Shown here piece by piece: positions 4,520 to 63,894 of a stretch of DNA of 64,000 nucleotides. Source of the DNA: a virus (Duplodnaviria > Heunggongvirae > Uroviricota > Caudoviricetes); the IMG/VR virus record IMGVR_UViG_3300012663_000706, one strand, 5' to 3'. Made by a program: the position numbers and the translations under genes. The notes beneath the pieces were generated by a model. That model had not been told where the DNA came from. It made no database searches and worked only from the letters and a program-made list of their open reading frames with translations. The number at the start of each line of letters is the position of its first letter. The stretch's first letter is position 1.

Positions 4520-4520
4520 A

Positions 4521-5966: not shown

Positions 5967-5985
5967 TACAGTCCAAATCTATTTT

Positions 5986-5997: not shown

Positions 5998-6006
5998 ATT
6001 TTACAG

Positions 6007-6037
6007 AAAAAATCCCTGTGTATTGCTACACAGGGAT
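6007..6037 (-). terminator. rho-independent terminator after the SPFH gene
   Basis: Perfect 11-bp stem ATCCCTGTGTA / TACACAGGGAT with a 4-nt loop, followed on the minus strand by TTTTTTCTG. Confidence 0.7.
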
Positions 6038-6063
6038 CTTAAATTGTTGGTTATTTATGGCTT

Positions 6064-48422: not shown

Positions 48423-50048
48423 CTATCCTTCGCAACTTGAACATTCTAGAATGTTTCTAGCAAATGATTGAGCAGAACTTTGGCTAAATTGGTAGTACAA
48501 AGTTTTTACTCCTTCTTCGTGTGCATATAGATACAATGTATTAATATCTTTGGCCGAAACCGATGGGTGAATCATTAAATTTAATGACTGCGATTGGTCG
48601 ATATATTTCTGTCTCTGTGCCGCTTGTAGAATAAGTTCCTTTGGAGAGATTTCAATAAAAGATTTAAAAACTGCTTTAGTTGGAAAATCTAAATGTTGAA
48701 CTGATCCGTCCTTCTTTAAGATACTTTCCCATACTTCTGGAGTATTTAAACCATATTTCTCAAGTTCTGCCTCTAAATGTGCATTTTTGAAAATAGTTTT
48801 CGACTTGGCCAAATCTTTAATAAAGTAATTTGACTTAATCGGCTCAATACCCATACTAACTTGTCCATGGATAAATGAACTACTTTTCGTAGGAGCAATT
48901 GCAATTAATGTAGTATTTGCAAAACCTTCTCTAATTGATCGGTAACCTAACTCGTCGTGTAGATATTTTGAGGCTGTTTCACTTCTTTCTTTTAGGGTTC
49001 TAAAGATTTCTGCATTTAACATTTTTGCCTGTAGAGAATCAAATTCGATTAATTTAGATTGAAACAACGTGTGATAACCTAAAACGCCTAATCCTAATGC
49101 TCTGTGTTGTTCAGCAAATCGGTGTGCTCTTGACATACCAGGCATGTTATATGATTTCTTTACGAATTCATCCATTACCGCATTCAAGAACATTGTATAA
49201 ACTTCGATTGCATCGGTATTTTTAAGTTCTTCCCAGTGTAAAAGATTAATAGATCCTAAACAACAAACAAAAGAATTAAAACTGTCCGTAGGTAATTGAA
49301 TCTCAGAGCATAGATTACTAGCTGTGATTTCTAAACCTAATTCTTTGTATGGTGAATTGTTATTGGTATTATCTTTAAACATAATATATGGAAAACCAAA
49401 TTCATTACGTCTTTGAATAACTTTAGCCCAGATTTTGCGTTTGTCTGGATCTCCAGCTTTCATTTCTTCGATCCACTTGTCAGTTACAGTAACTCCATAT
49501 TGTAAATTTTGAATTGGATTTCCTTCAGTTCCAATATCCAAGAATTCTAAAATATCACTATGTTCTACTGGTAACCATGCAGCGCATGCTCCTCTTCTCG
49601 CTTCAGATTGTTTGCAAACATCGACTGTAGTATCATACATTCTAGCATAGTGAACTGGTCCATCTGCTGTTCCGCCTGTCGAAATCTTTGCTCCTCTTTC
49701 TCTAATATTTCCTAAATAAATGCTGGTTCCTCCACCATATTTAGACATCATTCCTATTTCTCTGCTTGCATTTAAAATACTATCTAATGTATCATCAACA
49801 TTGCTTCCGTAGCAGCTGATCGGTAAACCTTTGTCTTTTCCAAAGTTAATCCATACTGGAGTTGAAAGGCTATAAAATCCGCGAGACATATAGTCTTCAA
49901 ACTTTTTAGCAAATCCTTCAATCTTTAAATACTTTTCGGCTTTATTTGCAATATCTTTAATTCTTTGTTCCGGTGATTCTGTAATATAACCTCTTGATAA
50001 AAAGGTCCTACTATTCTCATTCAGCCAATAGTATCTATTGTATTCCAT
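48423..50048 (-). CDS. nrdA: class I ribonucleotide reductase alpha subunit (compact, 541 aa)
   Basis: Active-site NLCSEIQLP (the NxCxE thiyl-radical loop) and a C-terminal redox Cys pair, CSSCEG. Adjacent to an nrdB-like gene. Confidence 0.7.
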   Translation of the reverse strand: MEYNRYYWLNENSRTFLSRGYITESPEQRIKDIANKAEKYLKIEGFAKKFEDYMSRGFYSLSTPVWINFGKDKGLPISCYGSNVDDTLDSILNASREIGMMSKYGGGTSIYLGNIRERGAKISTGGTADGPVHYARMYDTTVDVCKQSEARRGACAAWLPVEHSDILEFLDIGTEGNPIQNLQYGVTVTDKWIEEMKAGDPDKRKIWAKVIQRRNEFGFPYIMFKDNTNNNSPYKELGLEITASNLCSEIQLPTDSFNSFVCCLGSINLLHWEELKNTDAIEVYTMFLNAVMDEFVKKSYNMPGMSRAHRFAEQHRALGLGVLGYHTLFQSKLIEFDSLQAKMLNAEIFRTLKERSETASKYLHDELGYRSIREGFANTTLIAIAPTKSSSFIHGQVSMGIEPIKSNYFIKDLAKSKTIFKNAHLEAELEKYGLNTPEVWESILKKDGSVQHLDFPTKAVFKSFIEISPKELILQAAQRQKYIDQSQSLNLMIHPSVSAKDINTLYLYAHEEGVKTLYYQFSQSSAQSFARNILECSSCEG

Positions 50049-50073: not shown

Positions 50074-51054
50074 TTAAAATAAATCATCTTCTGTGATGCT
50101 TTGGCTCTTCTTATTATAATCAATTTGCTTCTTATAAAAGAAATCGCCTTCTTTTGTTGAAAGAATTTCAACGTCAAACCATAATGTCTTTTCGATTTCT
50201 GAGAAATCTACTTCAAAGACCGGTTTCATTCCAATTCTAGCTAGAGAATTGTTAAATCTGTTTTGGATAAAACTCTTAATAGTATCTTTTGTTAAGAAAC
50301 TTAGTTCTCCTTTTTCAAAGATCCAGTCTAAGATTTTACATTCAGCAATATAAGCTTTTTTACAAGCTGAATCGATTAATTGTTCGAATTCTTCGTCGAA
50401 CCATTCTGGATTTTCTTCTTTGATAATATTAATAAGTTCAGAACCGAAATTACCATGAATTTCTTCCTCTTTTGAAGTAGCTTCAACGACATTTGAAATT
50501 CCTTTGAAAAGATTTTTCTCTTTATTAAAAGACATCATAATCAAAAATTGGCTAAAAAGGCTGACATGTTCGATGAATAGAGAGAATAAAAGCACCGATT
50601 TGGTATACATTTTATTGTCTTTACTTCTTGTACCGTCTAGATATTTAGTCAAATATGCTATTCTGTCTTTAATTGCTGGAATTTCCACGACATGCATGAA
50701 TTCCTCTTCTAATCCTAAAATTCTTAAAAGTCTTGCGTATGCATCTTTGTGTCTTACTTCAGATTCTGCAAATGTCATTCCAACATCTCCAATCTCTGTG
50801 ATTGGCATTCTTTTGTAAAGATCTGCCCAAAATGTTTTTACATTTACTTCGATTTGTGCTATTGCAAGCATAGACCTTTTAATAACTTCTCTCTCATCGT
50901 CCGATATTTTAGTTTTAAAATCATCAATGTCTGTTGTGAAATTAAACTCGGTGTCGATCCAGTATGAATGACGTATTGCATCCTTGTATGCCAGAAGGGA
51001 AGGATATTCATAGGGAAGAATATTAACCCTTGGCATAAATATGTTATTGTTCAT
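50074..51054 (-). CDS. nrdB: ribonucleotide reductase beta subunit (ferritin-like diiron, 326 aa)
   Basis: ExxH pairs (ESEVRH and EEEIHGNF) and an acidic C-terminal tail for alpha binding. Confidence 0.7.
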   Translation of the reverse strand: MNNNIFMPRVNILPYEYPSLLAYKDAIRHSYWIDTEFNFTTDIDDFKTKISDDEREVIKRSMLAIAQIEVNVKTFWADLYKRMPITEIGDVGMTFAESEVRHKDAYARLLRILGLEEEFMHVVEIPAIKDRIAYLTKYLDGTRSKDNKMYTKSVLLFSLFIEHVSLFSQFLIMMSFNKEKNLFKGISNVVEATSKEEEIHGNFGSELINIIKEENPEWFDEEFEQLIDSACKKAYIAECKILDWIFEKGELSFLTKDTIKSFIQNRFNNSLARIGMKPVFEVDFSEIEKTLWFDVEILSTKEGDFFYKKQIDYNKKSQSITEDDLF

Positions 51055-51104: not shown

Positions 51105-52514
51105 CTAGACGCTCTTAGATTCTGCAAGTTTTTTATAATATTCTGACTTTTCGAATAGCTGGTAAGAAGTTGACTTATACTGCTTTCGTTTGTTATATAA
51201 GTCTGTAAGAATTTGTTTTAACATCGAGTCTTCTTTGTTATAAACAACTCCATTCTCGCAAACAATTACATTTTTATCTTTTCTGCGTTCTTCAATTTTT
51301 GCAGCTGGTACCTTTTCGATATATGAATCCGGTGAGATATTAAACTGACGCATGATTGAAGGATATAGGGATGCAAAGTCAAATGCACTTACTCCAGCAT
51401 AGAAACCAACTTTAGGTTCTTTAACAAATGCTCCTGCAAATTGTGTATCTTTTACACCATCATCTCTTTGCTCTGTTCCGATTCTTAATCCATCTTCTGC
51501 CATTTTTCTGGCAATTAAGGCTTCAGTTACAGCAACCGGAGATGCTGCTTTATAAATTGGCATTCTAGTAATGTTTGCCAATGTTAAAAGAACTTCCATT
51601 GATTTTAATTTCTGGTCAATAAAATAAACCAGCACTGAATCGACTACGTTATAATAAACATACTTTTTAAAATCATCACGATACAGGTCTTGTAAACCAC
51701 CGTTGTATTTGATTTTTCCAATACCAAGAACTTGGCCAGAAACATAATCAAGCGAATTAGATTCTTTTACTTTTACAGATTTATCATATTTGTCATACAA
51801 TTGCATGTAATCTAGAATACCCATGTGAAGTGGTCTAGAATCTGTTGGGTCGAGTGCTTTCGTGATTGCCGATTCAGCGATATCGATTTGTAAATGTTTA
51901 CAACGATTAACGATATATTGCCAGTCATAGTTAATAAAGTTCCAACCTGACATCATTGGGAATTTAGGCATAAATTTATACAAGAACGTATAAACCATGT
52001 CATATTCTGTTTTAAACTTTATGTATTGAAAAGTCCAGTTAACTCCAAATTGTTTAAAATAATCATTAGTATCTTTTTCAATTTGGGAAATTTGATCAGC
52101 ATCAAGGTCTTCTAAACCTAATACGATTGTCTTTCCGTTTGGCGTAATAATAGAGAATGTTAGAATACGAGATTTTGCTTCTTCTGCTCTTGGAAAACCA
52201 TCAACAATTTCTGTTTCAATATCGACAAAATAAGTCTTTGGCATATTGTATGCATAAATCTCTTCTTTGTCCTTTTCAGGGAGACTATCCATAAAATATA
52301 CCAAAGAGAATTTATTGAACTGACGAGAGTTTTGTAATTTAACCGATCTTCCATCCCAATTTTTAACTTTGGTACTTGAATCTCTTTCTTTGGCATCACA
52401 AACTGCCCAATTTTGGTATTGTGGAATTGGGTATCTTTTAAATGCTACTTCTCCTGCTGGATTGTAGTATGAAACCATTATTTCCTTATCTCGTTGTTCT
52501 ATATCTAATAGCAT
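51105..52514 (-). CDS. family-B DNA polymerase, N-terminal fragment (3'-5' exonuclease plus motif A; 469 aa)
   Basis: Exo I FVDIETE, Exo II NYDWQY, Exo III YYNVVD and motif A DFASLYPSIMRQFNISPDSY, which nearly matches T4 gp43 DLTSLYPSIIRQVNISPETI. Confidence 0.8.
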   Translation of the reverse strand: MLLDIEQRDKEIMVSYYNPAGEVAFKRYPIPQYQNWAVCDAKERDSSTKVKNWDGRSVKLQNSRQFNKFSLVYFMDSLPEKDKEEIYAYNMPKTYFVDIETEIVDGFPRAEEAKSRILTFSIITPNGKTIVLGLEDLDADQISQIEKDTNDYFKQFGVNWTFQYIKFKTEYDMVYTFLYKFMPKFPMMSGWNFINYDWQYIVNRCKHLQIDIAESAITKALDPTDSRPLHMGILDYMQLYDKYDKSVKVKESNSLDYVSGQVLGIGKIKYNGGLQDLYRDDFKKYVYYNVVDSVLVYFIDQKLKSMEVLLTLANITRMPIYKAASPVAVTEALIARKMAEDGLRIGTEQRDDGVKDTQFAGAFVKEPKVGFYAGVSAFDFASLYPSIMRQFNISPDSYIEKVPAAKIEERRKDKNVIVCENGVVYNKEDSMLKQILTDLYNKRKQYKSTSYQLFEKSEYYKKLAESKSV

Positions 52515-52534: not shown

Positions 52535-53002
52535 TTAATATCCTCTAGCTTGTCTTTGTTTATTTTCTTCTGCTTTTGCAAAATAATAATTGTAAGCTGT
52601 TTTTGCATCTAATCCAATTGATGATGCATAGTTAATAAAGAAGTGTAGAATGTCTACCCATTCCATATACAATTCTTTCTTATCATTTTCAGATAGGTCA
52701 GAGATTTTCATGTTCTCATATTTCTTATGAGCAGTTTTCCAGTATTTCCATACTGCATTTCCATCTCCATCTTTAATACCACCAAGAGCATCAGTCATTT
52801 CGTGAATTTCATCAACTACGGCATGAGTGTTAACATGCCAAAAGTTCATAATATCACGGATAGACATATTATCAAAATTAAACCCGTAAGTTTGCTCTTG
52901 CATAATTTTTTGATTCTCCATAATGTCAGCTAAATGTGTAGTTGACTTGTCATAGAAGTTAACAACTTCTAAATCTTTGCATTCGTTGTCTATGTTTGCC
53001 AT
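52535..53002 (-). CDS. MazG-like NTP pyrophosphohydrolase family protein (155 aa; tentative)
   Basis: All-alpha protein with paired acidic motifs (VVDEIHEMTD and MEWVDILHF), as in the MazG/dimeric dUTPase fold. Adjacent to the polymerase. Confidence 0.35.
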   Translation of the reverse strand: MANIDNECKDLEVVNFYDKSTTHLADIMENQKIMQEQTYGFNFDNMSIRDIMNFWHVNTHAVVDEIHEMTDALGGIKDGDGNAVWKYWKTAHKKYENMKISDLSENDKKELYMEWVDILHFFINYASSIGLDAKTAYNYYFAKAEENKQRQARGY

Positions 53003-53003
53003 A

Positions 53004-53429
53004 TTATTTATTGTTTTTTACAAATTTCTTATAATCTTCGATATAATTTCTGATACGATCAGAACCGACTGGATTCATTGAGTGTACATAAAAATTAGGT
53101 ACCTCGATATTGTTATCTTGACAGAATTCTACTAAGAATTTAGCACAATCTAAACCTGTTTTTTCTTCAAATTCAGTTGGATAATCATCAGCATCTCCGC
53201 AAGTTGGGCTGTAATGTTCATCTGCTAAATCATGGTCAAATGATACTGTTGCAGGAATTCCGTTTGTTTTAATCCATTCAACAAACTCATCATAGTTTAC
53301 TACTATGTCCCAGTCTAGTTGAGTGTAGATTGCGGCACTAGTTCCAATTCGGTGAGGCATGTAACCCATGCAGTCGTGTGGAATTCTAAAATCGTCTAAG
53401 AATAAATTTTTATTGTTTGTTCTTTTCAT
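53004..53429 (-). CDS. hypothetical protein (141 aa)
   Basis: ORF with an LFLDDFR...FDHDL pattern. Unassigned. Confidence 0.4.
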   Translation of the reverse strand: MKRTNNKNLFLDDFRIPHDCMGYMPHRIGTSAAIYTQLDWDIVVNYDEFVEWIKTNGIPATVSFDHDLADEHYSPTCGDADDYPTEFEEKTGLDCAKFLVEFCQDNNIEVPNFYVHSMNPVGSDRIRNYIEDYKKFVKNNK

Positions 53430-53452
53430 AATATCTGTATTAGATTATTATA

Positions 53453-54493
53453 TTAGAAAAGAGCATTTTGTTCAAAATTATTATTAAAGAAATATTCCAT
53501 TAGAGAATTATCAGCTCTTGCAACTTTTCTTCGATTAATTAGATGTGGGTTACTTCTTAGTCGGTAATAAACTCCGTACTGACAAAGTCCTACTTCGCAG
53601 CCGTATGTTTTTAAATCGTCTTGCTCGTCTTGAAAAATCTTCTTGCCATTTACTTCAACATTATGCGTTGATTCATGTAGAGGAATATCTCCAATTAGGT
53701 CTTTGTAGTTCTCTCTAAACCAAATTACTCGATCACCGTATGGAATTGTGCAATCTTCACCAAACATTAAGTCTAATGTAAATCTAGCTCCTGGTCCTGG
53801 TACACAGAATCTTTCGTCATGATTAACATTAATTCTTGGATTTACCGAATTGGACGTTGAGCAGTGATACCCGTAGTACTGTCCTACACCTTCTAGCGAG
53901 GACATAATTTCATACATCTCGCTTAAAGAATTAACCTGGGCCATCCTTCCAGTGATTCCTCTAGGTATAAATGACGCTACCCATAATAAAATATTAATTT
54001 TATGAGCATCTCGTTCCTGGTTTCTGGTTTGGGCAACATAAGTATTGGCTGCGCCGAATAAACTTGTACGTAATTCTGTACTTCCGTAGATCGGCAAACC
54101 TAAAGAAACTGCGTCTTCTAAATTCTTACGAATTTTATTTTCATATTCTCTATCAACTAAAAGTCTTTCGAAATCAACTAAAGCTGTTTTAGGATTTGGA
54201 TCTCTTGTTAGGATTTGGTGAATTCCACGAGCTCCGTAAAAGTGAGAAATAATCGTATTGCAGATAATATTGTCCATTGAGATTGGAGCATATACAATAT
54301 TCTCCATGATATATCTCATACGGTCATCTAGAGTAATTTGTGGGTGGAAGTATTCTACTGTTTCTCCTAACGCATCGTCTCCGTCGCTACTATAAGTATC
54401 TAGAACACCCATATTGTAGAGAGCTCTTTCATTAACTTTGTTAAAGAATCTACCGATATCTTTAACCACTTCCATATTTACTCTATCTCTCAT
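53453..54493 (-). CDS. hypothetical protein (346 aa)
   Basis: ORF only. Confidence 0.4.
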   Translation of the reverse strand: MRDRVNMEVVKDIGRFFNKVNERALYNMGVLDTYSSDGDDALGETVEYFHPQITLDDRMRYIMENIVYAPISMDNIICNTIISHFYGARGIHQILTRDPNPKTALVDFERLLVDREYENKIRKNLEDAVSLGLPIYGSTELRTSLFGAANTYVAQTRNQERDAHKINILLWVASFIPRGITGRMAQVNSLSEMYEIMSSLEGVGQYYGYHCSTSNSVNPRINVNHDERFCVPGPGARFTLDLMFGEDCTIPYGDRVIWFRENYKDLIGDIPLHESTHNVEVNGKKIFQDEQDDLKTYGCEVGLCQYGVYYRLRSNPHLINRRKVARADNSLMEYFFNNNFEQNALF

Positions 54494-54502
54494 TTTTAAT
54501 TT

Positions 54503-55171
54503 TTATTTTGTGAACCAACAATCGTAACCTGCTACGCTTTGAAATACTATTAATTCTTTAATGTGCTGCTTTGGGTATAACGCTGTTAATCTTTCTAATG
54601 TAGGTTGCGCATATTGTTTAACTTTACCCATGTGCAATTCTACGAATAGAGCTTCTGGTTGGTATGCTTCTACAAATTCTATAATTTGATATTCAGCACC
54701 TTCAATATCGATTTTAATAATATCTGGTTGATATTTCTTTAAAAGCTCGCTAATATGAATGTTAATAACTTCATCGTAGTCGGTAAATTTGCTACGTTTC
54801 ATAATAGAAACTGAACAATGCGCTTGTTGGCTATTACCCTTATAGATTCTAATAGAAGGTGCTGTACTATCCGATACTGCAGCATGAATTATGTTTGCTT
54901 TAGGTTCGTCTGCAAAACTTTCTGCCATTTTTTCATAATTGCGAATATCGCATTCTACAGTATAAACTGCTTTAGCTCCTCCGTCAATTGCTACTTTAGT
55001 AAAACCTCCAACATTTCCACCTAGATCTAAACAAACTTTATCAGTAAAGTCTATTTCTGGAGTCATGTAATTAGTAATACAATCAACAATCATGTTTTTG
55101 TCAACTGATTCTGTCGCATTTAAATACTTAATGTATTTTCTTTTTAATTCTCTTTGTACTGGTGTCAGCAT
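54503..55171 (-). CDS. SAM-dependent methyltransferase (FkbM-like, 222 aa)
   Basis: Rossmann motif I VCLDLGGNVGGFT, followed by acidic motif II. Confidence 0.6.
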   Translation of the reverse strand: MLTPVQRELKRKYIKYLNATESVDKNMIVDCITNYMTPEIDFTDKVCLDLGGNVGGFTKVAIDGGAKAVYTVECDIRNYEKMAESFADEPKANIIHAAVSDSTAPSIRIYKGNSQQAHCSVSIMKRSKFTDYDEVINIHISELLKKYQPDIIKIDIEGAEYQIIEFVEAYQPEALFVELHMGKVKQYAQPTLERLTALYPKQHIKELIVFQSVAGYDCWFTK

Positions 55172-55177
55172 AATCTG

Positions 55178-55588
55178 TTATTTTTCTACTAAGTTTGATA
55201 CTATATGAACTATATCTAGTTCTGGATGTGCTTGTTTGATTACTGCCATTTGAACCTCATCATCTTCAAAAAATCTAACAACTTCAACTCCATCTTTTTT
55301 CAGATCAGAAATTGTTTTGGCTTTATGTTTTCCGGAAAAGATTCTAGCTTCTACGGTATGGTCTCCTCTTTCTGCTAATGTCATTTGATTAAAATAAACA
55401 TTAGTGGCAATATTAAGTTCTGCTAGTTTTTCAAAAACATAAGGTGCCTCTTCTTGGCATCTTCCTGTTATGATAACATCATCACTGAATCTTGGTCTAA
55501 TACCAAGGGAAACTACTCCATCAAAATCGTATGCGTATATTTTATGTGTCATTGGTTTAAATTTTAACCATTTCCTGAATATTGACAT
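55178..55588 (-). CDS. HAD-superfamily phosphatase (minimal, 136 aa)
   Basis: Motifs in order: I YAYDFDGVV (DxDG), II VIITGR, III Lys (GKHKAK), IV FFEDDE. Confidence 0.55.
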   Translation of the reverse strand: MSIFRKWLKFKPMTHKIYAYDFDGVVSLGIRPRFSDDVIITGRCQEEAPYVFEKLAELNIATNVYFNQMTLAERGDHTVEARIFSGKHKAKTISDLKKDGVEVVRFFEDDEVQMAVIKQAHPELDIVHIVSNLVEK

Positions 55589-55597
55589 GGCTGTAAA

Positions 55598-55635
55598 TTA
55601 AAAAGATGGAGAATCGCTTCTCCATCTTAGTTTTT
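55598..55635 (-). terminator. rho-independent terminator after the MIPS gene
   Basis: AGATGGAGAA-tcgc-TTCTCCATCT (10-bp stem) flanked by A and T runs. Confidence 0.7.
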
Positions 55636-55638
55636 GAA

Positions 55639-56820
55639 TTAAGCTCCTTTAACCTGTTTAGCAGTAACCGTTGTTAGTTTGCGGTGAGCTAATGCTTCGC
55701 ATTCTTGAACAGCGTCTGTAAACATCATTTGTTGAGGAGGTGTTTTTTGTGTGAAAGCAGAAGGACCTCTTAAGGCTCCAACTATTCCCATTTCTCTTGC
55801 AACTCTTAAGTAACGAAGGGCATCGATTACAACTCCTGCGGAGTTTGGAGAATCTTGTACTGAAAGTTGAGCATCAAAGATTACTGGTGCTCCACCAAAT
55901 CCTTCAAGTTCTAAACGGAAGTTAGCAACTTTATTATCTCCATAATATGAGATATACTCAGAAGGACCAGCATGAAGGAATGAACCTTCGGTTGCAATTC
56001 CACGTATTTCGTTTTGAGCACGAATTACGTTTTCTTTAGAAATCTTTTTAGATTTCAAACGAGTTTTGTCTTCCATATTCAAGAAGTCAGTGTTACCACC
56101 AACATTACGTTGAATGTGTGCTTTTACAACATGTCCTCTTTCGAATGCAAGTTCTTGTAACATTTGAGACAAGATAGATGCACCAAATTGAGAACGCATA
56201 TCGTCACCAATTAATGGAATACCTGCGTCGATAAAACGTTTCTCCCATGCTGGATCAGATGCGATAAATACTGGAATACAGTTTACTAAAGAGATTCCAG
56301 TTTCTAGACAGATTTCAGCCCAAAATTCTGTAGCGTTTTGAGAACCTACTGGTAAGTAGTTAATCAATACTTCTACTTCATGTTCTTTTAATTGAGCAAT
56401 AACTCTGTCTTTCCAAAGACGAGACTTTTTATCAGTCCAGTCTGTGCGATTCATTTCTGATGAATTTCTCAATTCTTCAGAAACTAAGAAACGATTTGCT
56501 TCTGGATATGCATCCATTAACAATGCGTAACCATCAATTACTGGAGCTTCATAAACTGGAGCTTCTGATGTAATTGTTTCAACAATGTTCCATGCTGAAT
56601 TTGGTTTTTGCTTCAAAGCAACTCCTAGAGGTTGATTAACTTTACGTTCATCGATATCAAATGCGCAGACAAATTCAATGTCTTTTGCAGTGTAACCACC
56701 GATGTCGCTTCTCATCATACCGTCGATGTTTGCTTGGTTTTCAGTGTAGAATTGTACTCCTTCTACTAGAGACTTGGCGCAGTTTCCTGTTCCAATGATT
56801 GCAACTTTGATTTTACTCAT
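55639..56820 (-). CDS. myo-inositol-3-phosphate synthase (MIPS) family protein (393 aa)
   Basis: The N-terminal VAIIGTGNCAKSLVEGVQFY matches the NAD-binding start of bacterial Ino1 (VAIVGVGNCASSLVQGVEYY). The length is typical. Confidence 0.6.
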   Translation of the reverse strand: MSKIKVAIIGTGNCAKSLVEGVQFYTENQANIDGMMRSDIGGYTAKDIEFVCAFDIDERKVNQPLGVALKQKPNSAWNIVETITSEAPVYEAPVIDGYALLMDAYPEANRFLVSEELRNSSEMNRTDWTDKKSRLWKDRVIAQLKEHEVEVLINYLPVGSQNATEFWAEICLETGISLVNCIPVFIASDPAWEKRFIDAGIPLIGDDMRSQFGASILSQMLQELAFERGHVVKAHIQRNVGGNTDFLNMEDKTRLKSKKISKENVIRAQNEIRGIATEGSFLHAGPSEYISYYGDNKVANFRLELEGFGGAPVIFDAQLSVQDSPNSAGVVIDALRYLRVAREMGIVGALRGPSAFTQKTPPQQMMFTDAVQECEALAHRKLTTVTAKQVKGA

Positions 56821-56866
56821 GGTTTTCGTAATTTGTTTAAGTTATACGTGATTTTTATTAAATGTT

Positions 56867-57922
56867 TCAAAATAGGCTTACTACTTTTGGTTTAGGTGTT
56901 GGTTTTTTCTTCTTCTCTCCAGTTTCAAAATCATATTGATAATATTCTCTAGAAAGGTGAACTGAACCAGGCTTTTCCATATAAGTGTCGGCATAGTCTT
57001 TAGGACTTATATTGTACCATTCAATAGGCCATTCGATTAATTCGAACCCGGCCTCACTTAGATATATACTCAGCTTTTTGTTGAAAATTCGACAGATTTC
57101 CAATCTTTTTTCTAATGAACCATAAAATGGAGTTTTCTTATAGAATCCAGTTTGTGGAATTCTTCTCTCTTCATGCTCGATTGGAAGTAATTGCATAACA
57201 CTAATCTTTTCGATGTTTAATGTTTTTAACTGGTCAACATAGTTTTTAACTAGTTCTTCAGTTGCTTTTACTGGATCGGCTTGGCGGCATAAATGATGTC
57301 TAATATCGATATTGCCAAAATAAGTTACTAAATGTTTGGTGCCTTGTGGTACATATGTACCGATACCCTCTTTAAGGATTCCAAATAATGTTTTACCATC
57401 ATTTCTGGAAATATCGGCTCCGGGAATATAAGCAGATACTGAATGGCTATCACCTAGTACAAAGGTACCGTTGTTAAGGGTTAAATCAATAGTTTCTACT
57501 GACTTTGCTCTTGATGACAGGAGTTCAACGTCTAAAGCTTTCCAGTTGTCTGTACATGATGACATTCTACTTTGTGCAAAAACACCAACGTCTGGCATTT
57601 GTCTATTAAGACAATATACTTCTCCTTTAAAATCAATAAATCTTTGAATTCTTGCGGCTGGTTCATCTCCTGCACCGCCAAAAAGATTGTAACTACCTTG
57701 GAATTCCATCGGTAAGGCTACCATCCAAACGTCAAAATCATGAATGTTTCCGTCTTTTGTTAAGACAGTAACATCTAATCCTAGGCTTTTTAGTTGGGAC
57801 ATTAATAAATATGTCCATGCTGATTTGTGAGATTCTGGTCTAGAGCTGTAAGTTGTTACAACATCATCAATTGCAATTTTCTTGCCGACCAAACTATCCT
57901 TTACATCATAGATACTAATCAT
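56867..57922 (-). CDS. hypothetical two-domain protein, C-terminal SGNH/GDSL-hydrolase-like (351 aa)
   Basis: FVLGDSHS (GDS block I), a Gly block and GNID..HH. The call is weak. Confidence 0.3.
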   Translation of the reverse strand: MISIYDVKDSLVGKKIAIDDVVTTYSSRPESHKSAWTYLLMSQLKSLGLDVTVLTKDGNIHDFDVWMVALPMEFQGSYNLFGGAGDEPAARIQRFIDFKGEVYCLNRQMPDVGVFAQSRMSSCTDNWKALDVELLSSRAKSVETIDLTLNNGTFVLGDSHSVSAYIPGADISRNDGKTLFGILKEGIGTYVPQGTKHLVTYFGNIDIRHHLCRQADPVKATEELVKNYVDQLKTLNIEKISVMQLLPIEHEERRIPQTGFYKKTPFYGSLEKRLEICRIFNKKLSIYLSEAGFELIEWPIEWYNISPKDYADTYMEKPGSVHLSREYYQYDFETGEKKKKPTPKPKVVSLF

Positions 57923-58193
57923 TTGCTTTTGTTTTATCGTTGATGTAGTTCTCTAATCCTTGGATATAGGCAACTGCATCTAACAAATTATCTTGCTTGT
58001 GATTGTAACTTTCTCTAGAGAATTTTAAAGCAACTAAGGCTTTAAACATGTGTTCTCCAGTTACTGGGAATCCGGTCATGCCTTGAAAAATTAAGGCTGC
58101 ACGATCCATACCTTCTGAAAAAGGACCATAGTTGCGGTCTGCTTCTTCTGATCTGTGATTGACGATTTTGTCTGCTTCTTCTAAAATACTCAT
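57915..58193 (-). CDS. hypothetical protein (92 aa)
   Basis: First gene of the MIPS operon. A late-type TATATAA motif lies about 27 nt upstream. Confidence 0.4.
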   Translation of the reverse strand: MSILEEADKIVNHRSEEADRNYGPFSEGMDRAALIFQGMTGFPVTGEHMFKALVALKFSRESYNHKQDNLLDAVAYIQGLENYINDKTKAND

Positions 58194-58474: not shown

Positions 58475-58486
58475 GTGCTAATTATT

Positions 58487-58530
58487 TATATGTAAATATA
58501 AACAATTTTCTTGACATAAAAAAATATTTA
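58487..58530. repeat. 44-bp repeat, second exact copy of the one at 27724..27767
   Basis: Identical 44-mer. Confidence 0.7.
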
Positions 58531-61321: not shown

Positions 61322-62776
61322 TTATTTCATTTTAAAACCTAACTTACCATTACCTGGATTGGTAGATGATACATTCGGTGCTTCAAATGATAGTTTTGCA
61401 TTAGCGTCGCTAAATCCTTTTAAATAGAAATGGATAATATCCTTTTTAAGGTCTACGTCCATATATAATTGTTTAACGTCTAATTTACCAACGATTGTTC
61501 TTAGAGTACTGATATACATATCTCCAGCTCCAAGTTTACCGTTTAATGCGTCAATAAGTTCCAAACTTAATGAATAACTAAATAGACCAATATATTTTTT
61601 ACCTTTGTCTAACTTATCCCACTGCACCTTATCAAATTTAGCAACTCCTCTTCCAGAAGATTGAACTAATGGTACAACGTACGTGCTAAAGAACTCTTCT
61701 TTTCCAAGTTCATTCATTTTAGTTTGTATAAAACTTTCCAAAGATTTTTCATCTAGTGAAATGTTTCCAACTAAACCTTTTAATATAGCAACTGTTGGAG
61801 TATTAATAAATTCAGCTCCTTTAAGATAACCGTCAACTACTGAATTTGCTTCGACTATTTTAAATAAGTCGTATAATTGAACTTCTGCCGTTTCAGTAAA
61901 ATTTTCAGCTTTTAGATTCTTGATAATATTAGTAAGAGTTGGTGCAGCACCTGATTTATATTTTGAAGATATACCATATCCATCTATATAAAAGTCGACT
62001 AATGGATTATTTCCAGAAGGAAATGAAATTCCCTTTTCGGTTTTTACCATGTTTAATAATAATGCTGCTCCTAAAACTTCACCAAAGTCTTTACCAATCG
62101 TATTTAAATCTGCTGATCCAAGAGCATCGATTGCCTCTCTAACATTTTCATCATAACCGATAGTTTCTGCAAAAGCAGAAAGAGCTAAAGGATCGGTAAA
62201 GAAATTAGTCGGTTTGTGCATTGAAACCAAATCGTAAAGTTCAGTTAAGAAACTTTGCATGAAAAGATTAGAACTGTATTTACTAGTGATTGCGGCTTTA
62301 ACACTACTTGCTAATGATGAACTATTCATATCAACATCTTGTGGTAATTTAAGAGAAGTAGGTGTTAGTTCTTTAGATTTGATTGAACCCTTTGGAGGAT
62401 TATTATCAACGAATTTAATAACATCTCCTTTCGAAGCTTTTATTGAATCTACATCTTCTCCGAAAGTTACAATAAAAGTTGTGAATTTTCCGGAATTCGA
62501 ACCGTTTGAATATTCTCCAGGAGCGGCTGTTGTAATGTCGAAATTAGTTGCTCCTACTTTATTTAAAGCGTCTGATATTAATTTTAAAGCATTTTTAGAA
62601 TCTCCACCTAAATCAAATCTAAGATCTTTTCCTCCATTCTTTGTATTAATTCTACCGCTTCCTAATATTTTTTCCATAGCAGGAAGTACAGTACCTTCAA
62701 TTGTTCTTGCAGATTCATTTAATAAATCCATTGCTAATTGAAATCTTGCTCTAATATCTCCGTAAGTTTGTGCCAT
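61322..62776 (-). CDS. hypothetical protein (484 aa)
   Basis: ORF. Its start overlaps the stop of the NMNAT-like gene (TAATG). Confidence 0.4.
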   Translation of the reverse strand: MAQTYGDIRARFQLAMDLLNESARTIEGTVLPAMEKILGSGRINTKNGGKDLRFDLGGDSKNALKLISDALNKVGATNFDITTAAPGEYSNGSNSGKFTTFIVTFGEDVDSIKASKGDVIKFVDNNPPKGSIKSKELTPTSLKLPQDVDMNSSSLASSVKAAITSKYSSNLFMQSFLTELYDLVSMHKPTNFFTDPLALSAFAETIGYDENVREAIDALGSADLNTIGKDFGEVLGAALLLNMVKTEKGISFPSGNNPLVDFYIDGYGISSKYKSGAAPTLTNIIKNLKAENFTETAEVQLYDLFKIVEANSVVDGYLKGAEFINTPTVAILKGLVGNISLDEKSLESFIQTKMNELGKEEFFSTYVVPLVQSSGRGVAKFDKVQWDKLDKGKKYIGLFSYSLSLELIDALNGKLGAGDMYISTLRTIVGKLDVKQLYMDVDLKKDIIHFYLKGFSDANAKLSFEAPNVSSTNPGNGKLGFKMK

Positions 62777-63894
62777 TATATCTTATTTATAAATTGTTCG
62801 AAGGTTAGTATCTCTAAATCTTGATTTGTTTCATTAGATTCATTTGCTATAGAATAATCTAATTTATCCTTTAGTGTAAGAAACATTGAGTGCATTGAAT
62901 GTGGCGTCATTTTATTAAACTCCTTAGAGTTACCATCGATCAACGCCTGTCTTACCTTGGTTGCTGATATATCATCATCACCTCTTTGGATTTCGTACAA
63001 CCCGAATTCAGGGAGTACACCCAGATCTTCACGATATTTGTCATTGTTAACCATATATCCGTATGCCTTCATTCTATCAGTTCCGGTTCCCCAAAGTACT
63101 GGTTCGAAATTTGGTCTTAGCTCATTAAACATTACGTCAATGGCTGCAGATGGTACAACAATTACTTGCTTTAGGAATTTGTATTCAGATTGAACGTTGT
63201 TAAACATTTCAATTTGCGTTTCAACGTCGTAAGGACGTTTAACAGCATCTTCCTTTTTAGAAGTTTTTGATTTAACTAGGAATACAATAACTGGATAACC
63301 ATTTTGTTTGTTAAGAGTTTCTAAAACTTTAACATGTCCTAAGGTAAATGGTTGGAACCTTCCAACAAAAATATTAACCTTCTCTTTACCTTGCTCTGGA
63401 TAATCTATCTTAAGAGCTTCAGTAATTTTTTGGCTATTTGCTACTTTGTCGTGGACAATATAGTTTTTAAAATCATGAACATGATTTTCATCTGTAGATT
63501 CTACAAATATCTTTTGTTCGATTTTATCGATAATTTCATTAATTTGAGTAAACACAAGTCCTGTTATGATTGATGTTTCTTTAGTTCTTTTCTTTCTTAG
63601 GCTACCTAAGATGATTTTGTAAAGTTCTGCCAAAACTGGGTTTTCTAAATATTTAAGAGTTGTTTCATTCTTAATATAATTAGTGTTTAATTGGAATGAT
63701 TCAACCGTTGAAAAGTTAGCTGAATCGAATTTAGCTCCTACATATTTAAAAGCGTTTTGATTTAAATATTGGTTGTAGATTGCAGAAACTAGTTCAATGT
63801 ATCTTAATTCAGAATTTTCTTCGCTAAGTTCAATTTCATCGAAATTAAAACCATTTAAAAATTCTAATAAGTCTACAATAGTAATTTGGTACAT
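62776..63894 (-). CDS. two-domain protein with a C-terminal NMN/NaMN adenylyltransferase-like nucleotidyltransferase domain (372 aa)
   Basis: GRFQPFTLGH matches the archaeal NMNAT signature GRFQPFHKGH ((H/T)xGH class). The downstream ISATKVR resembles the NMNAT SGTEIRR motif. The N-terminal ~170 aa are unassigned. Confidence 0.55.
   Translation of the reverse strand: MYQITIVDLLEFLNGFNFDEIELSEENSELRYIELVSAIYNQYLNQNAFKYVGAKFDSANFSTVESFQLNTNYIKNETTLKYLENPVLAELYKIILGSLRKKRTKETSIITGLVFTQINEIIDKIEQKIFVESTDENHVHDFKNYIVHDKVANSQKITEALKIDYPEQGKEKVNIFVGRFQPFTLGHVKVLETLNKQNGYPVIVFLVKSKTSKKEDAVKRPYDVETQIEMFNNVQSEYKFLKQVIVVPSAAIDVMFNELRPNFEPVLWGTGTDRMKAYGYMVNNDKYREDLGVLPEFGLYEIQRGDDDISATKVRQALIDGNSKEFNKMTPHSMHSMFLTLKDKLDYSIANESNETNQDLEILTFEQFINKI

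What the first reader, a model, noticed from the sequence alone, without database searches (positions are those of the whole stretch)
53004..58193. Predicted phage cyclitol cassette: MIPS, a minimal HAD phosphatase, an FkbM methyltransferase and unknown partners, next to the split DNA polymerase
Going by coordinate, a 141-aa and a 346-aa unknown, an FkbM-type methyltransferase, a 136-aa HAD phosphatase, a MIPS-family synthase, a 351-aa SGNH-like protein and a 92-aa ORF lie in one co-oriented block, next to a MazG-like NTPase and the polymerase (transcription runs from the high-coordinate end, since the genes are on the minus strand).

MIPS followed by a sugar-phosphate phosphatase is exactly the two-step route from glucose-6-phosphate to myo-inositol. 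The methyltransferase and hydrolase partners suggest further tailoring to a methyl-inositol or another cyclitol.

Possible roles are an osmolyte or auxiliary metabolic function, a donor for virion or DNA modification, or host-surface remodelling. Late-type promoter motifs precede both sub-operons.
Basis: partly seen in the sequence, partly recalled or inferred. Interest (0 to 1): 0.8.

Follow-up and report, generated by a model that had tools for sequence, protein, structure and literature searches.

The report
Phage DNA-modification island with inositol genes
The inositol-making genes are real, but they sit among enzymes that decorate phage DNA bases, so this T4-like virus probably attaches an inositol-type ring to its DNA, a kind of DNA modification not found in the literature searched here.

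Summary
All seven minus-strand ORFs exist as described. MIPS is solid (Pfam 2.4e-22; M. tuberculosis Ino1 2.3e-79). FkbM is above cutoffs. The 136-aa protein keeps all four HAD motifs in 66 homologs, but has no profile or structure confirmation. The 351-aa protein has an SGNH fold.

The partners change the reading. The 346-aa "unknown" is a DNA-glycosylase-fold protein. It matches Pfam's 5-hmdU-DNA-kinase helical domain, and its best structural match is a phage base:DNA glycinyltransferase. The 351-aa protein joins a T4 β-glucosyltransferase-like N-domain to the SGNH domain. These two are one fused protein in Aeromonas phages 31/44RR, which have genes 42 and 56 but no glucosyltransferase. The "MazG-like" gene is a gp56-type dCTPase.

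In relatives, a gp42-like dCMP hydroxymethylase adjoins the block, and a β-glucosyltransferase homolog replaces or joins it. MIPS+HAD also neighbour DNA-hypermodification genes in phages Cr30, RP13 and Moby.

Best reading: a 5-hydroxymethylpyrimidine (probably hmC) DNA hypermodification island. MIPS+HAD(+FkbM) supply free (methyl-)inositol as the appended group. The chemistry is inferred, and the window phage's own hydroxymethylase was not found. The promoter claim is not confirmed for the second sub-operon.

The parts
58483..58490 (-). TATAAATA, T4-late-promoter-like motif 9 nt upstream of the 76-aa ORF that leads into the block. A possible promoter for the first transcription unit.
   Evidence: 7 exact sites in the window (not above chance), but 6 of the 7 lie on the coding strand directly upstream of gene starts. 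Sequence shown. Function inferred only.
57915..58193 (-). 92-aa DUF6378 protein. Unknown biochemical role. Tightly linked to the dCMP-hydroxymethylase homolog in relatives, so probably part of the modified-nucleotide supply side.
   Evidence: Pfam DUF6378 1.3e-8. It follows the TS homolog directly in about 55 loci. It is 64-100% identical across cassette-bearing contigs. No PDB sequence match.
56867..57922 (-). 351-aa two-domain protein. The N-terminal α/β domain is related to the N-terminal domain of T4 DNA β-glucosyltransferase. The C-terminal domain is an SGNH-fold esterase/acyltransferase with Ser159 (GDSH), Gly176, Asn204 (GNID) and His322 conserved. Proposed DNA-level catalytic partner of p346.
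55639..56820 (-). 393-aa myo-inositol-1-phosphate synthase family enzyme (NAD-dependent). Expected to convert glucose-6-phosphate to inositol-3-phosphate.
   Evidence: Pfam PF01658 2.4e-22. PDB 1gr0 Ino1 2.3e-79. Conserved motifs: GTGNCA 10-15, NVGGNTDFLN 239-248, SKKISK 257-262, GDNK 294-297, QDSPNSAG 322-329, QKTPP 358-362. NCBIfam mycothiol_INO1 scores 288 bits, below the equivalog cutoff of 638.
55603..55628 (-). 11-bp GC-containing hairpin followed by a U-rich tract, between the MIPS stop and the HAD start. Terminator- or attenuator-like, and splits the block into two units.
   Evidence: terminator-like scan.: ΔG -15.3 kcal/mol, z -5.04, none of 200 shuffles folds as well. Sequence.
55178..55588 (-). 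136-aa (or 124-aa from Met13) minimal HAD-type phosphatase candidate. Proposed inositol-phosphate phosphatase that releases free inositol.
   Evidence: Motifs I DFDGV (21), II IITGR (39), III SGKHK (85) and IV FEDD (107), invariant in 66 distinct homologs. Lies directly downstream of MIPS in Moby, Cr30 and RP13. Only weak profile support: PHROG PNK 5.9e-4, Acid_phosphat_B 0.027 and LNS2 0.041. No PDB sequence hit.
54503..55171 (-). 222-aa FkbM-family SAM-dependent methyltransferase. Proposed O-methylation of the cyclitol, free or already attached. Optional, since it is absent in some relatives.
   Evidence: Pfam Methyltransf_21 2e-15. TIGR01444 61 bits against a 37.7 cutoff. Absent in L032, L056, L062, L063 and the L089-type loci. 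A second copy is present in L045.
53453..54493 (-). 346-aa all-helical helix-hairpin-helix DNA-glycosylase-superfamily protein of the 5-hmdU-DNA-kinase helical-domain family, without any P-loop. Proposed module that binds DNA, flips the hydroxymethyl base and possibly carries out the group transfer.
53004..53429 (-). 141-aa cREC receiver-like domain protein. Accessory neighbour, probably not a core part of the cassette.
   Evidence: Pfam cREC_REC 6.6e-20. Present only in the closest relatives and absent in most cassette-bearing contigs. The family is predicted, not shown, to resolve cyclic phosphates in RNA-repair or ADPr contexts (PMC9503650).
52535..53002 (-). 155-aa gp56-type dCTPase/dUTPase (all-α NTP pyrophosphatase). 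Expected to deplete dCTP so that a modified dCTP is used for replication.
   Evidence: tblastn finds 1416 phage records, mostly T4-like, and most of those listed are annotated gp56 dCTPase or dCTP pyrophosphatase (E down to 8e-19). PHROG NTP-PPase 1.2e-12. Conserved at 79-100% next to the cassette.

Best explanation
The block is the DNA-modification island of a distant T4-like phage. It is not a free-standing metabolic cassette. It lies in the slot beside the DNA polymerase gene where T4 itself keeps gene 42 (dCMP hydroxymethylase) and β-glucosyltransferase.

Proposed flow:
1. The gp56-type dCTPase, with a gp42-like hydroxymethylase that is adjacent in relatives but was not located for this phage, causes a 5-hydroxymethylpyrimidine, most likely 5-hmC, to be built into phage DNA.
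2. MIPS converts glucose-6-phosphate to inositol-3-phosphate. The small HAD-type phosphatase releases free myo-inositol. The FkbM enzyme O-methylates it, before or after attachment.
3. The 351-aa protein (β-glucosyltransferase-like acceptor domain plus SGNH catalytic domain) and the 346-aa DNA-glycosylase-fold protein work as one enzyme; they are a single polypeptide in Aeromonas phages. They act on the flipped-out hydroxymethyl base and attach the cyclitol.

Inositol has no anomeric carbon and cannot be donated from a nucleotide sugar. The likely chemistry is therefore the reverse polarity used in thymidine hypermodification: the 5-CH2-OH is first turned into a leaving group, and a hydroxyl of free inositol then displaces it to give an ether-linked 5-(inosityl-oxymethyl)pyrimidine. 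Here the activating step would be an ester made by the SGNH domain, in place of the phosphate made by a kinase.

Shown: the identities and folds of the parts, their conserved linkage, and their association with DNA-modification genes in several lineages. Inferred: the target base in this phage, inositol as the attached group, the SGNH activation step, the ether product, and the purpose (protection from host nucleases).
For: Fold and family.
- p346 matches Pfam 5-hmdU DNA kinase helical domain. Its best structural match is the phage 5-PmdU glycinyltransferase, then HhH DNA glycosylases.
- The p351 N-domain matches the T4 BGT N-domain at 90.6% probability. Its SGNH domain keeps the Ser/Gly/Asn/His signature.
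- p155 is a gp56-type dCTPase homolog.

Fusion.
- p351 and p346 are one 795-aa protein in Aeromonas phages 31 and 44RR. In the window they flank MIPS, HAD and FkbM.
- Phages 44RR, 31 and 25 are the T4 relatives reported to have genes 42 and 56 but no glucosyltransferase (PMC2993671).

Neighbourhood in relatives.
- A TS homolog lies directly upstream of DUF6378, p351, MIPS, HAD and p346 in 13 or more contigs. It retains T4 gp42 Cys148, Asp179, Asp145 and Asp171, the hydroxymethyl-dCMP signature given in PMC13326640.
- Sister contigs carry a BGT homolog in that slot instead. Others insert a full-length BGT homolog inside the cassette.

Independent contexts for MIPS+HAD.
- Cr30: next to a Pfam ADDT amino-acid:DNA transferase (1.3e-52).
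- RP13: about 3 kb from a 5-hmdU DNA kinase 2 gene (1.4e-13).
- Moby: inside the FolE/QueC/DpdA/QueE 7-deazaguanine DNA-modification cluster.

Supply-module swapping.
- p351 or the p351-p346 fusion sits beside MIPS+HAD here, beside an SGLT-type sugar/polyol importer in phage 31, and beside UDP-galactopyranose mutase in phage 25.

Precedents.
- Arabinosyl-5hoC clusters contain a sugar-phosphate enzyme plus a small HAD phosphatase beside the TS homolog and dCTPase (PMC13326640).
- O-nucleophile substitution at an activated 5-hydroxymethyl group is established for phage ViI (PMC8989533).

Position.
- T4 has 43, imm, 42, β-gt, uvsX. The window has pol-N, gp56-like, then the cassette.
Against: - No hydroxymethylase (TS homolog) lies in the 64-kb window. 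None could be located on contigs of the window's own lineage. gp56 alone does not prove a modified base.
- No kinase or other established activating enzyme is in the cassette. An SGNH enzyme activating a DNA base has no precedent, and the acyl donor is unknown.
- p346 resembles the transferases only at fold level. Sequence profiles do not link it to Cr30 ADDT or RP13 HMUD2 or to 8z2m. It may only bind DNA, as in the kinases.
- BGT did not appear in the structural searches for p351. The N-domain link rests on one hhalign hit over 75 columns.
- MIPS+HAD occur without p351 or p346 within the fetched flanks (7 kb either side) in Moby, Cr30 and RP13. p351/p346 occur without MIPS in Aeromonas phages. 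The modules are therefore separable, and adjacency in a hyperplastic region near the polymerase could be partly historical.
- MIPS is below NCBI's equivalog threshold. The family also includes a five-membered-cyclitol-phosphate synthase (6k96), so the product may not be myo-inositol phosphate.
- The HAD assignment is motif-based only.
Confidence: 0.55

Rival explanations
1. Independent auxiliary metabolic module. MIPS+HAD(+FkbM) make free inositol or methyl-inositol for a purpose unrelated to DNA, such as osmoprotection, host phospholipid or envelope remodelling, or redirecting glucose-6-phosphate. They merely sit in the gene-shuffling hotspot beside the polymerase, next to unrelated DNA-modification genes.
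For: MIPS+HAD form a self-contained two-step route and occur without p351 or p346 within the fetched flanks in Moby, Cr30 and RP13. p351/p346 occur without MIPS in Aeromonas phages. A terminator-like hairpin separates MIPS from the downstream genes. The region near gene 43 is variable between relatives.
Against: MIPS+HAD neighbour DNA-base-modification genes in all four contexts examined: the window lineage, Cr30 ADDT, RP13 HMUD2 and the Moby deazaguanine cluster. In about 100 contigs they lie between two genes that are one fused protein elsewhere, and the order is kept at 33-45% identity of the flanking genes. In sister contigs the slot is filled by a DNA glucosyltransferase homolog. No transporter, lipid, cell-wall or osmotic-stress gene accompanies them in the window.
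Confidence: 0.2
2. DNA hypermodification, but the cyclitol is not the appended group. The base is glycosylated or acylated by p351/p346 using host metabolites, with p351 perhaps acting as an O-acyltransferase or esterase on hmC or on a sugar already attached. The MIPS-family enzyme either makes a different sugar or cyclitol phosphate that feeds a nucleotide-sugar, or has a side role.
For: SGNH enzymes are typically carbohydrate O-acetyl esterases or transferases. p351 sits beside a UDP-galactopyranose mutase in phage 25 and beside BGT homologs in some relatives. The MIPS family includes enzymes with other products (6k96), and the phage enzyme is below the Ino1 equivalog cutoff.
Against: The cassette contains no sugar kinase or nucleotidyltransferase of the kind found in the arabinose clusters. 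The only nucleotidyltransferase-like gene in the window (62776-63894) is about 5 kb away and looks like an NMN adenylyltransferase. The phage MIPS is far closer to Ino1 (2.3e-79) than to the variant synthase (2e-45), and it keeps the conserved catalytic-core motifs, although the five-membered-cyclitol synthase retains those motifs too. A phosphatase directly after MIPS argues for a free polyol product.
Confidence: 0.17
3. Counter-defence small-molecule module. The enzymes (cREC, HAD, SGNH, MIPS, methyltransferase) make or destroy a signalling or immune metabolite and do not modify DNA.
For: cREC is predicted to process cyclic phosphates or ADPr derivatives in conflict systems. A bacterial p346 homolog lies in a defence-like island. 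aGPT-Pplase and 5-hmdU-kinase-type domains occur in predicted defence systems. Cr30 carries the CBASS inhibitor Acb3 about 5.7 kb downstream of MIPS.
Against: cREC is absent from most cassette-bearing contigs. The core genes have DNA-acting folds and are linked to a dCTPase, a hydroxymethylase and a glucosyltransferase. No known immune signal is inositol-based in the literature searched.
Confidence: 0.05

Closest known systems
Thymidine hypermodification clusters of phages ViI, M6, PaMx11, SP10 and ΦW-14 (5-hmdU DNA kinase plus aGPT-Pplase/amino-acid:DNA transferase; Lee et al. 2018 and 2021, PMC5889632 and PMC8989533)
   Same: Post-replicative decoration of a 5-hydroxymethylpyrimidine in DNA. 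A helix-hairpin-helix glycosylase-fold protein is the DNA-level enzyme; p346's best structural match is PaMx11 gp46 and its Pfam family is the kinase's helical domain. Free small-molecule nucleophiles, including an O-nucleophile (serine in ViI), are attached. Tailoring enzymes sit in the same cluster.
   Different: There is no P-loop kinase in the cassette. An SGNH/BGT-like protein stands where the kinase would be. The likely base is cytosine-derived, given the gp56-type dCTPase and the gp42-like enzyme with Asp179 in relatives. The small molecule is made by the phage itself (MIPS+HAD) and would be a cyclitol, not an amino acid or polyamine. p346 is not detectably related by sequence to ADDT or HMUD2.
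T4 hmC glucosylation system (genes 42, 56, α-gt, β-gt)
   Same: Same genomic slot next to gene 43. A gp56-type dCTPase homolog is adjacent. A gp42-like hydroxymethylase and full-length β-gt homologs appear at the same locus in relatives. The p351 N-domain is related to the β-gt N-domain.
   Different: p351 lacks the UDP-glucose-binding C-domain and has an SGNH domain in its place. No nucleotide-sugar donor is possible for inositol. An extra HhH-fold partner (p346) is required or linked.
Arabinosyl-5-hydroxycytosine clusters of RB69 and DLP3 (Lee et al. 2026, PMC13326640)
   Same: The cluster logic is the same: TS homolog, dCTPase, a phage-encoded sugar-phosphate-forming enzyme and a small HAD phosphatase, plus DNA-level transferases.
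   Different: Those clusters continue with a kinase and a nucleotidyltransferase to make UDP-arabinose, and use GT-B glycosyltransferases on 5-hydroxyC. Here the TS homologs carry the hydroxymethyl signature (Asp at the E. coli D169 position retained), no sugar-activation genes are present, and the transferase candidates belong to different folds.
Cellular myo-inositol synthesis (Ino1 plus inositol monophosphatase), for example in mycothiol or phosphatidylinositol pathways
   Same: MIPS-family enzyme with conserved NAD-binding and catalytic motifs, closest to actinobacterial Ino1, followed by a phosphatase candidate.
   Different: The phosphatase is a roughly 125-aa capless HAD-type protein, not an IMPase-fold enzyme. 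No downstream mycothiol or lipid genes are present. The genomic context is DNA modification. The score is below the Ino1 equivalog cutoff (288 against 638 bits).

Membership tests
Myo-inositol-1-phosphate synthase (MIPS/Ino1) | Catalytic-domain profile match above the curated threshold | tested here: met
   Pfam PF01658: 79.6 bits against a cutoff of 27, E 2.4e-22, residues 213-324. PDB 1gr0 Ino1 E 2.3e-79 over residues 3-99 and 140-366.
Myo-inositol-1-phosphate synthase (MIPS/Ino1) | N-terminal NAD-binding Gly-rich motif and conserved catalytic-core motifs (SK..SK lysines, DNK lysine, D-S-P-N-S-A-G aspartate, K-T/S-P lysine) | tested here: met
   GTGNCA 10-15 aligns with GVGNCA of Ino1. NVGGNTDFLN 239-248, SKKISK 257-262, GDNK 294-297, QDSPNSAG 322-329 and QKTPP 358-362 align with Ino1 and A. 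fulgidus MIPS. Which residues are catalytic is taken from my own knowledge of the A. fulgidus and yeast enzymes, not tested here.
Myo-inositol-1-phosphate synthase (MIPS/Ino1) | Equivalog-level score, meaning the same function is assured | tested here: not met
   NCBIfam TIGR03450 mycothiol_INO1: 288.5 bits against a cutoff of 638. The second-best PDB relative is a five-membered-cyclitol-phosphate synthase. The protein is a family member, but its product is not assured.
Myo-inositol-1-phosphate synthase (MIPS/Ino1) | Conversion of glucose-6-phosphate to inositol-3-phosphate | not testable with these tools
   Needs an enzyme assay.
HAD-superfamily phosphatase | Four motifs in order: I DxDx(T/V), II (S/T), III K, IV (D/E)D | tested here: met
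   DFDGV at 21, IITGR at 39, SGKHK at 85 and FEDD at 107. D, D, T, K and DD are invariant in 16 aligned sequences and 66 distinct homologs.
HAD-superfamily phosphatase | Significant profile or structural match to known HAD enzymes | tested here: inconclusive
   No Pfam or NCBIfam hit for the window protein. PHROG polynucleotide kinase (phosphatase part) 5.9e-4. Family members give weak hits: Acid_phosphat_B 0.027 and LNS2 0.041. PDB sequence searches are empty. The wide homolog search returned only unannotated close relatives.
FkbM-family methyltransferase | Profile match above curated cutoffs, including the SAM-binding motif | tested here: met
   Pfam PF05050: 57.8 bits against a cutoff of 22.7. 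TIGR01444: 61 bits against 37.7. DLGGNVGG at residue 49. The substrate is unknown.
SGNH/GDSL hydrolase-acyltransferase | Fold plus signature residues Ser (block I), Gly (II), Asn (III) and His (V) | tested here: met
T4 DNA β-glucosyltransferase (PF09198) | Homologous N-terminal (acceptor/DNA) domain | tested here: inconclusive
T4 DNA β-glucosyltransferase (PF09198) | C-terminal UDP-glucose-binding Rossmann domain (GT-B) | tested here: not met
   The C-terminal half of p351 is an SGNH fold. There is no Pfam PF09198 hit. p351 is therefore not a BGT-family member. Genuine BGT homologs exist in relatives.
[quoted passage not shown] | Helical (HMUDK_hel) domain | tested here: met
   p346: PF18723, 50.8 bits against a cutoff of 25, residues 56-313. 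The same domain is recorded for 119 of the 120 listed homologs.
[quoted passage not shown] | P-loop kinase domain | tested here: not met
   No kinase or P-loop family hit in p346 or in any cassette protein. The p346 model is all-helical. It is therefore not a 5-HMUDK.
aGPT-Pplase / amino-acid:DNA transferase (ADDT) | HhH glycosylase-like fold resembling a characterised transferase | tested here: met
aGPT-Pplase / amino-acid:DNA transferase (ADDT) | Sequence-profile membership | tested here: not met
   No Pfam ADDT or aGPT-Pplase hit. hhalign of the p346 family against Cr30 ADDT gives probability 0.2%. The family profile does not find 8z2m by sequence. It may work like these enzymes, but it is not a family member by sequence.
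gp56-type dCTPase | Homology to T4-like gp56 proteins | tested here: met
   tblastn: 1416 phage records, E down to 8e-19, and most listed hits are annotated gp56 dCTPase or dCTP pyrophosphatase. Substrate preference not testable.
5-hydroxymethylpyrimidine DNA hypermodification cluster | A phage-encoded hydroxymethylase (TS homolog) that supplies the base | tested here: inconclusive
   None in the window. Present and contiguous with the cassette in 13 or more related contigs, with the gp42 signature residues. Not located for the window's own lineage.
5-hydroxymethylpyrimidine DNA hypermodification cluster | A modified base actually present in virion DNA | not testable with these tools
   Needs LC-MS/NMR of phage DNA.

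The most novel reading that the evidence does not exclude
Phages attach a carbocyclic sugar analogue, (methyl-)myo-inositol made by their own MIPS+HAD(+FkbM), to a hydroxymethylpyrimidine in DNA through a non-glycosidic ether bond. The enzyme pair responsible is new: a β-glucosyltransferase-like/SGNH protein that activates the base by esterification, without the usual phosphorylation, plus an HhH-fold partner that catalyses the substitution. Such a base would be isobaric with glucosyl-hmC but resistant to glycosidases and to acid cleavage of a glycosidic bond. It would exist in cultured phages (Cr30, Menderavirus, RP13) as well as in a large group of environmental T4-like phages.
Probability: 0.35. 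Interest if true: 0.9.

Novelty: new variant of a known kind. Interest (0 to 1): 0.8.

Why it matters
Phage DNA hypermodifications determine sensitivity to restriction enzymes and CRISPR nucleases, and they have supplied useful enzymes such as T4 β-glucosyltransferase. The pyrimidine decorations I know of are sugars, amino acids or polyamines.

A cyclitol ether would be a chemically new class. It would be made by a new enzyme architecture with no kinase and no nucleotide-sugar donor. The gene set recurs in more than 100 environmental viral contigs.

It would also explain two open items: what T4 relatives with genes 42 and 56 but no glucosyltransferase (Aeromonas phages 44RR, 31, 25) do with their hmC, and why several cultured phages carry an 'inositol-1-phosphate synthase' annotated without context.

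Inositol and hexose are isomers, so such a base could already have been misread as 'hexosyl' in mass spectra. The hypothesis can be tested directly, because Cr30, Moby/Mendera, RP13 and the Aeromonas phages are in culture.

Tried and rejected
- **DNA-level search.** The block has no near match in cultured phages.
- **Finding the hydroxymethylase of the window's own phage.** Exact-protein look-ups at both window ends gave a 4-kb contig and nothing. A TS-alignment scan of IMG/VR returned 80 loci, none on the large window-lineage contigs. This remains unresolved.
- **Sequence links of p346 to characterised enzymes.** All negative: PDB profile search, hhalign against Cr30 ADDT and RP13 HMUD2.
- **HAD confirmation.** PDB phmmer and hmmsearch, Pfam on 16 members and a 5.8-billion-protein profile search gave only weak hits or uninformative close relatives.
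- **Unknown partners next to p351.** In phage 25 (358 aa), L157 (353 aa) and Cr30 (308 aa) there was no significant similarity to p346, p351 or BGT profiles.
- **DUF6378.** No PDB match. The PHROG label 'phosphofructokinase' has no Pfam or NCBIfam support here, and I judge it an annotation artefact.
- **Promoters.** Sigma-70 and one-mismatch late-promoter scans are at chance level.
- **Literature.** No paper links inositol synthesis to phage DNA modification. The Iyer/Aravind 2013 paper was not available.
- **Readings considered and rejected.** Osmolyte or host-surface remodelling has no supporting neighbour genes. cREC as a core component is unlikely because it is absent in most relatives.

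Full report
**1. Observation**

The window is a distant T4-like myovirus genome segment with about 34% G+C, and nearly all genes are on the minus strand. It encodes terminase, portal, capsid, sheath, gp46/47, gp41, UvsX and gp45. Its family-B DNA polymerase is split into two genes, with nrdA and nrdB between them.

The seven ORFs of the finding are present at exactly the stated coordinates and are co-oriented. They are tightly packed, with spacers of 1-46 nt and one 8-nt overlap. The exception is the 50-nt gap between MIPS and the next gene, or 86 nt if that gene starts at Met13. This gap holds a very stable hairpin followed by a U-tract (55603-55628; ΔG -15.3 kcal/mol, z = -5.0).

There is no DNA-level relative among cultured phages. 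The identical MIPS protein, however, occurs on many metagenomic contigs.

**2. What each protein is**

| ORF | Assignment | Key evidence |
|---|---|---|
| 393 aa (55639-56820) | MIPS-family enzyme | Pfam 2.4e-22; M. tuberculosis Ino1 2.3e-79 |
| 136 aa (55178-55588) | HAD-type phosphatase candidate | four HAD motifs, invariant in 66 homologs |
| 222 aa (54503-55171) | FkbM-family methyltransferase | above Pfam and TIGRFAM cutoffs |
| 155 aa (52535-53002), "p155" | gp56-type dCTPase | 1416 phage records |
| 92 aa (57915-58193) | DUF6378 | Pfam 1.3e-8 |
| 141 aa (53004-53429), "p141" | cREC domain | Pfam 6.6e-20 |

*MIPS.* The NAD-binding and catalytic-core motifs are conserved against Ino1 and the A. 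fulgidus enzyme. Two cautions apply. It scores 288 bits against NCBI's Ino1 equivalog cutoff of 638. Its second-best solved relative is a five-membered-cyclitol-phosphate synthase.

*HAD candidate.* It has motif I (DFDGV), II (IITGR), III (SGKHK) and IV (FEDD). Profile and structural confirmation is weak or absent.

*p155.* The "MazG-like NTPase" is a homolog of the gp56-type dCTPase of T4-like phages.

*cREC.* This domain is predicted, but never shown, to resolve cyclic phosphates.

**3. Linkage evidence**

(a) In about 80 IMG/VR contigs the order DUF6378, p351, MIPS, HAD, (FkbM), p346, (cREC), gp56-like is kept. Meanwhile p351 falls to 33-38% identity and p346 to about 27%. cREC is usually absent and FkbM is sometimes absent.

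(b) p351 and p346 are the N- and C-terminal parts of a single 795-aa protein (ORF233c) in Aeromonas phages 31 and 44RR2.8t. In the window these two halves bracket MIPS, HAD and FkbM.

(c) Phages 44RR, 31 and 25 are the T4 relatives noted by Petrov et al. (PMC2993671) to carry genes 42 and 56 but no glucosyltransferase.

(d) In a second clade of contigs a thymidylate-synthase homolog lies directly upstream. The order there is TS, DUF6378, dUTPase, p351, MIPS, HAD, p346, and then an unsplit polymerase. That TS homolog aligns end to end with T4 gp42. It keeps Cys148, Asp179, Asp145 and Asp171. By the criteria of Lee et al. 2026 (PMC13326640), this is the 5-hydroxymethyl-dCMP signature, not the thymidylate or 5-hydroxy-dCMP signature.

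(e) In about 20 sister contigs the slot after TS and DUF6378 is occupied by a β-glucosyltransferase homolog instead. In three window-lineage contigs a full-length BGT homolog is inserted inside the cassette (28% identity to T4 β-gt over 95% of its length; Pfam above cutoff). Other inserts are a CysK-like PLP enzyme, a second FkbM and a Fringe-like glycosyltransferase.

(f) T4's own gene order is 43, imm, 42, β-gt, uvsX. The cassette therefore occupies the positional equivalent of T4's modification genes.

**4. MIPS+HAD elsewhere**

Among cultured phages, MIPS homologs (43-53% identity) occur only in Stenotrophomonas Menderavirus phages, Caulobacter phage Cr30 and Ralstonia phage RP13. In all three the HAD-like gene follows MIPS within about 700 bp: directly in Moby and after one or two small ORFs in RP13 and Cr30. 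The neighbours are again DNA-modification genes:
- In Moby the pair lies between FolE and QueC/DpdA/QueE, the 7-deazaguanine DNA-modification genes, next to the polymerase.
- In Cr30 the gene two positions upstream of MIPS is a Pfam "amino acid:DNA transferase" (ADDT, 1.3e-52). A weak TET-associated-glycosyltransferase-like gene lies between them.
- In RP13 a "5-hmdU DNA kinase 2" gene (1.4e-13) lies about 3 kb downstream.

That makes four separate contexts linking MIPS+HAD to DNA base hypermodification.

**5. Supply-module swapping around p351/p346**

- In Aeromonas phage 31 the gene directly upstream of the fused enzyme is a phage-encoded sodium:solute symporter. It is closest to the Vibrio Na+/galactose transporter and to SGLT1/2 (Pfam 7e-53; PDB 2xq2 9e-104).
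- In Aeromonas phage 25 the p351 homolog is preceded by a UDP-galactopyranose mutase (5e-54) and an unknown 358-aa protein.

p351, alone or with p346, thus sits beside a source of a sugar-like molecule in three lineages: de novo synthesis, import, or nucleotide-sugar conversion. This fits an enzyme that attaches such a molecule.

**6. Mechanistic proposal and its status**

Homology supports a gp56/gp42-type route to a hydroxymethylpyrimidine genome, a two-step route to free inositol, and two DNA-directed proteins that act together.

The step that joins them is inferred. Inositol has no anomeric carbon, so a Leloir-type transfer is impossible. The thymidine-hypermodification pathway offers the alternative: activate the base's CH2OH, then displace the leaving group with a free nucleophile. 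An O-nucleophile is already known in ViI (PMC8989533).

Here no kinase is present. I propose that the SGNH domain of p351 forms an ester leaving group, and that p346 presents the flipped base and may catalyse the substitution. Equally possible, p346 only binds DNA, as it presumably does in the kinases, and p351 does all the chemistry.

FkbM would O-methylate a ring hydroxyl. This fits what I recall of FkbM itself, which methylates a cyclohexyl hydroxyl in FK506 biosynthesis; that point is my own knowledge and was not checked here.

**7. Weak points**

- No hydroxymethylase was found in the window or located for its lineage.
- The BGT-like domain rests on a single hhalign result.
- The HAD call is motif-based.
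- MIPS is below equivalog level.
- The two modules (MIPS+HAD and p351/p346) occur separately, so coupling is inferred from conserved adjacency and not shown.

The main rival is an independent inositol AMG lying in a variable region. It remains possible, at roughly 0.2.

**8. Promoters**

One exact T4-late-type TATAAATA lies at 58483-58490, ahead of the 76-aa ORF. A TATAATTA lies 17 nt ahead of DUF6378. Nothing comparable precedes the HAD/FkbM half, and overall motif counts are at chance level. Six of the seven exact sites do lie on the coding strand immediately upstream of genes, so they may be real late promoters.

**9. Novelty and verdict**

I found no report connecting inositol synthesis with phage DNA modification. 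The kind of system, a phage hydroxymethylpyrimidine hypermodification cluster, is known. The candidate appended group (a cyclitol), the absence of a kinase or nucleotide-sugar donor, and the BGT-like/SGNH plus HhH enzyme pair are new. I classify it as a new variant of a known kind.

The hypothesis is directly testable on cultured phages. One warning for such tests: an inosityl adduct is isobaric with a hexosyl adduct.

Noticed in passing
window 46323-47519 and 51105-52514 (with 47519-48265, 48423-50048 and 50074-51054 between): The family-B DNA polymerase is split into two genes that are separated by a gp45-like clamp gene and by nrdA and nrdB. Relatives of the L089 type have a single 818-aa polymerase directly after the cassette.
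   Followed up: partly
L004:3097-4620 (Aeromonas phage 31 ORF234c): A phage-encoded SGLT-type sodium/sugar-polyol symporter (Pfam SSF 7e-53; vSGLT 9e-104) lies directly upstream of the fused p351-p346 gene. A membrane solute importer is unusual in a lytic T4-like phage.
   Followed up: partly
L193:2773-3837 and 3878-4954 (Aeromonas phage 25): A UDP-galactopyranose mutase (GLF, 5e-54) and an unknown 358-aa protein sit directly upstream of the p351 homolog. This hints at a galactofuranose-type DNA decoration in that phage.
   Followed up: partly
L002:4732-5961, 5943-6869 and 13855-14655 (Caulobacter phage Cr30): Genes annotated as hypothetical are a Pfam amino-acid:DNA transferase (1.3e-52), a weak TET-associated-glycosyltransferase-like protein, and an Acb3 CBASS inhibitor (1.8e-68).
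   Followed up: partly
L003:11279-12535 (Ralstonia phage RP13 ORF133): A hypothetical protein matches Pfam '5-hmdU DNA kinase 2' (1.4e-13), about 3 kb from the MIPS+HAD pair.
   Followed up: no
window 424-2265, 2287-4377 and 4521-5966: Three consecutive paralogous fibre-like or lectin-like ORFs share a nearly identical N-terminus of about 110 aa (MPNKFKYNKTGSEA.SIFKGNWAI...) and diverge afterwards.
   Followed up: no
window 62776-63894: Cytidylyltransferase-like protein that resembles an NMN adenylyltransferase (GRFQPFTLGH; Pfam CTP_transf_like 6.1e-8). The ORF is 372 aa here, but the corresponding gene is 619 aa on near-identical contigs (L005).
   Followed up: no
P0056, P0065, P0066, P0072, P0074, P0077, P0079; L089:9567-11030: Long forms of p346 (487-560 aa) carry a Lys-rich linker and a conserved C-terminal module of about 60 aa (…GGLGLKLDSNWKESWAIMQEMV…) with no Pfam match.
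   Followed up: partly
L115:10001-11032 (Crocinitomix algicola, protein P0090): A bacterial p346 homolog (55% identity) lies in a defence or mobile-element-like island, next to an HTH protein, an integrase, a Schlafen/AlbA protein, a NUDIX protein and a PLD-helicase.
   Followed up: no
window 53004-53429: The cREC-domain protein is present only in the closest relatives of the window phage. It lies next to the gp56-like gene. Its link to the cassette, if any, is unexplained.
   Followed up: partly
L072:3896-4765 and L081:6996-7874: A CysK-like PLP enzyme (PALP, 4e-70) is inserted between p351 and MIPS in some relatives. This suggests further chemical variants of the modification.
   Followed up: no
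L157:4534-6590: In this contig a p351 homolog is followed by an unrelated 353-aa protein with no family match, and there is no MIPS or p346. This may be another variant of the partner enzyme.
   Followed up: partly
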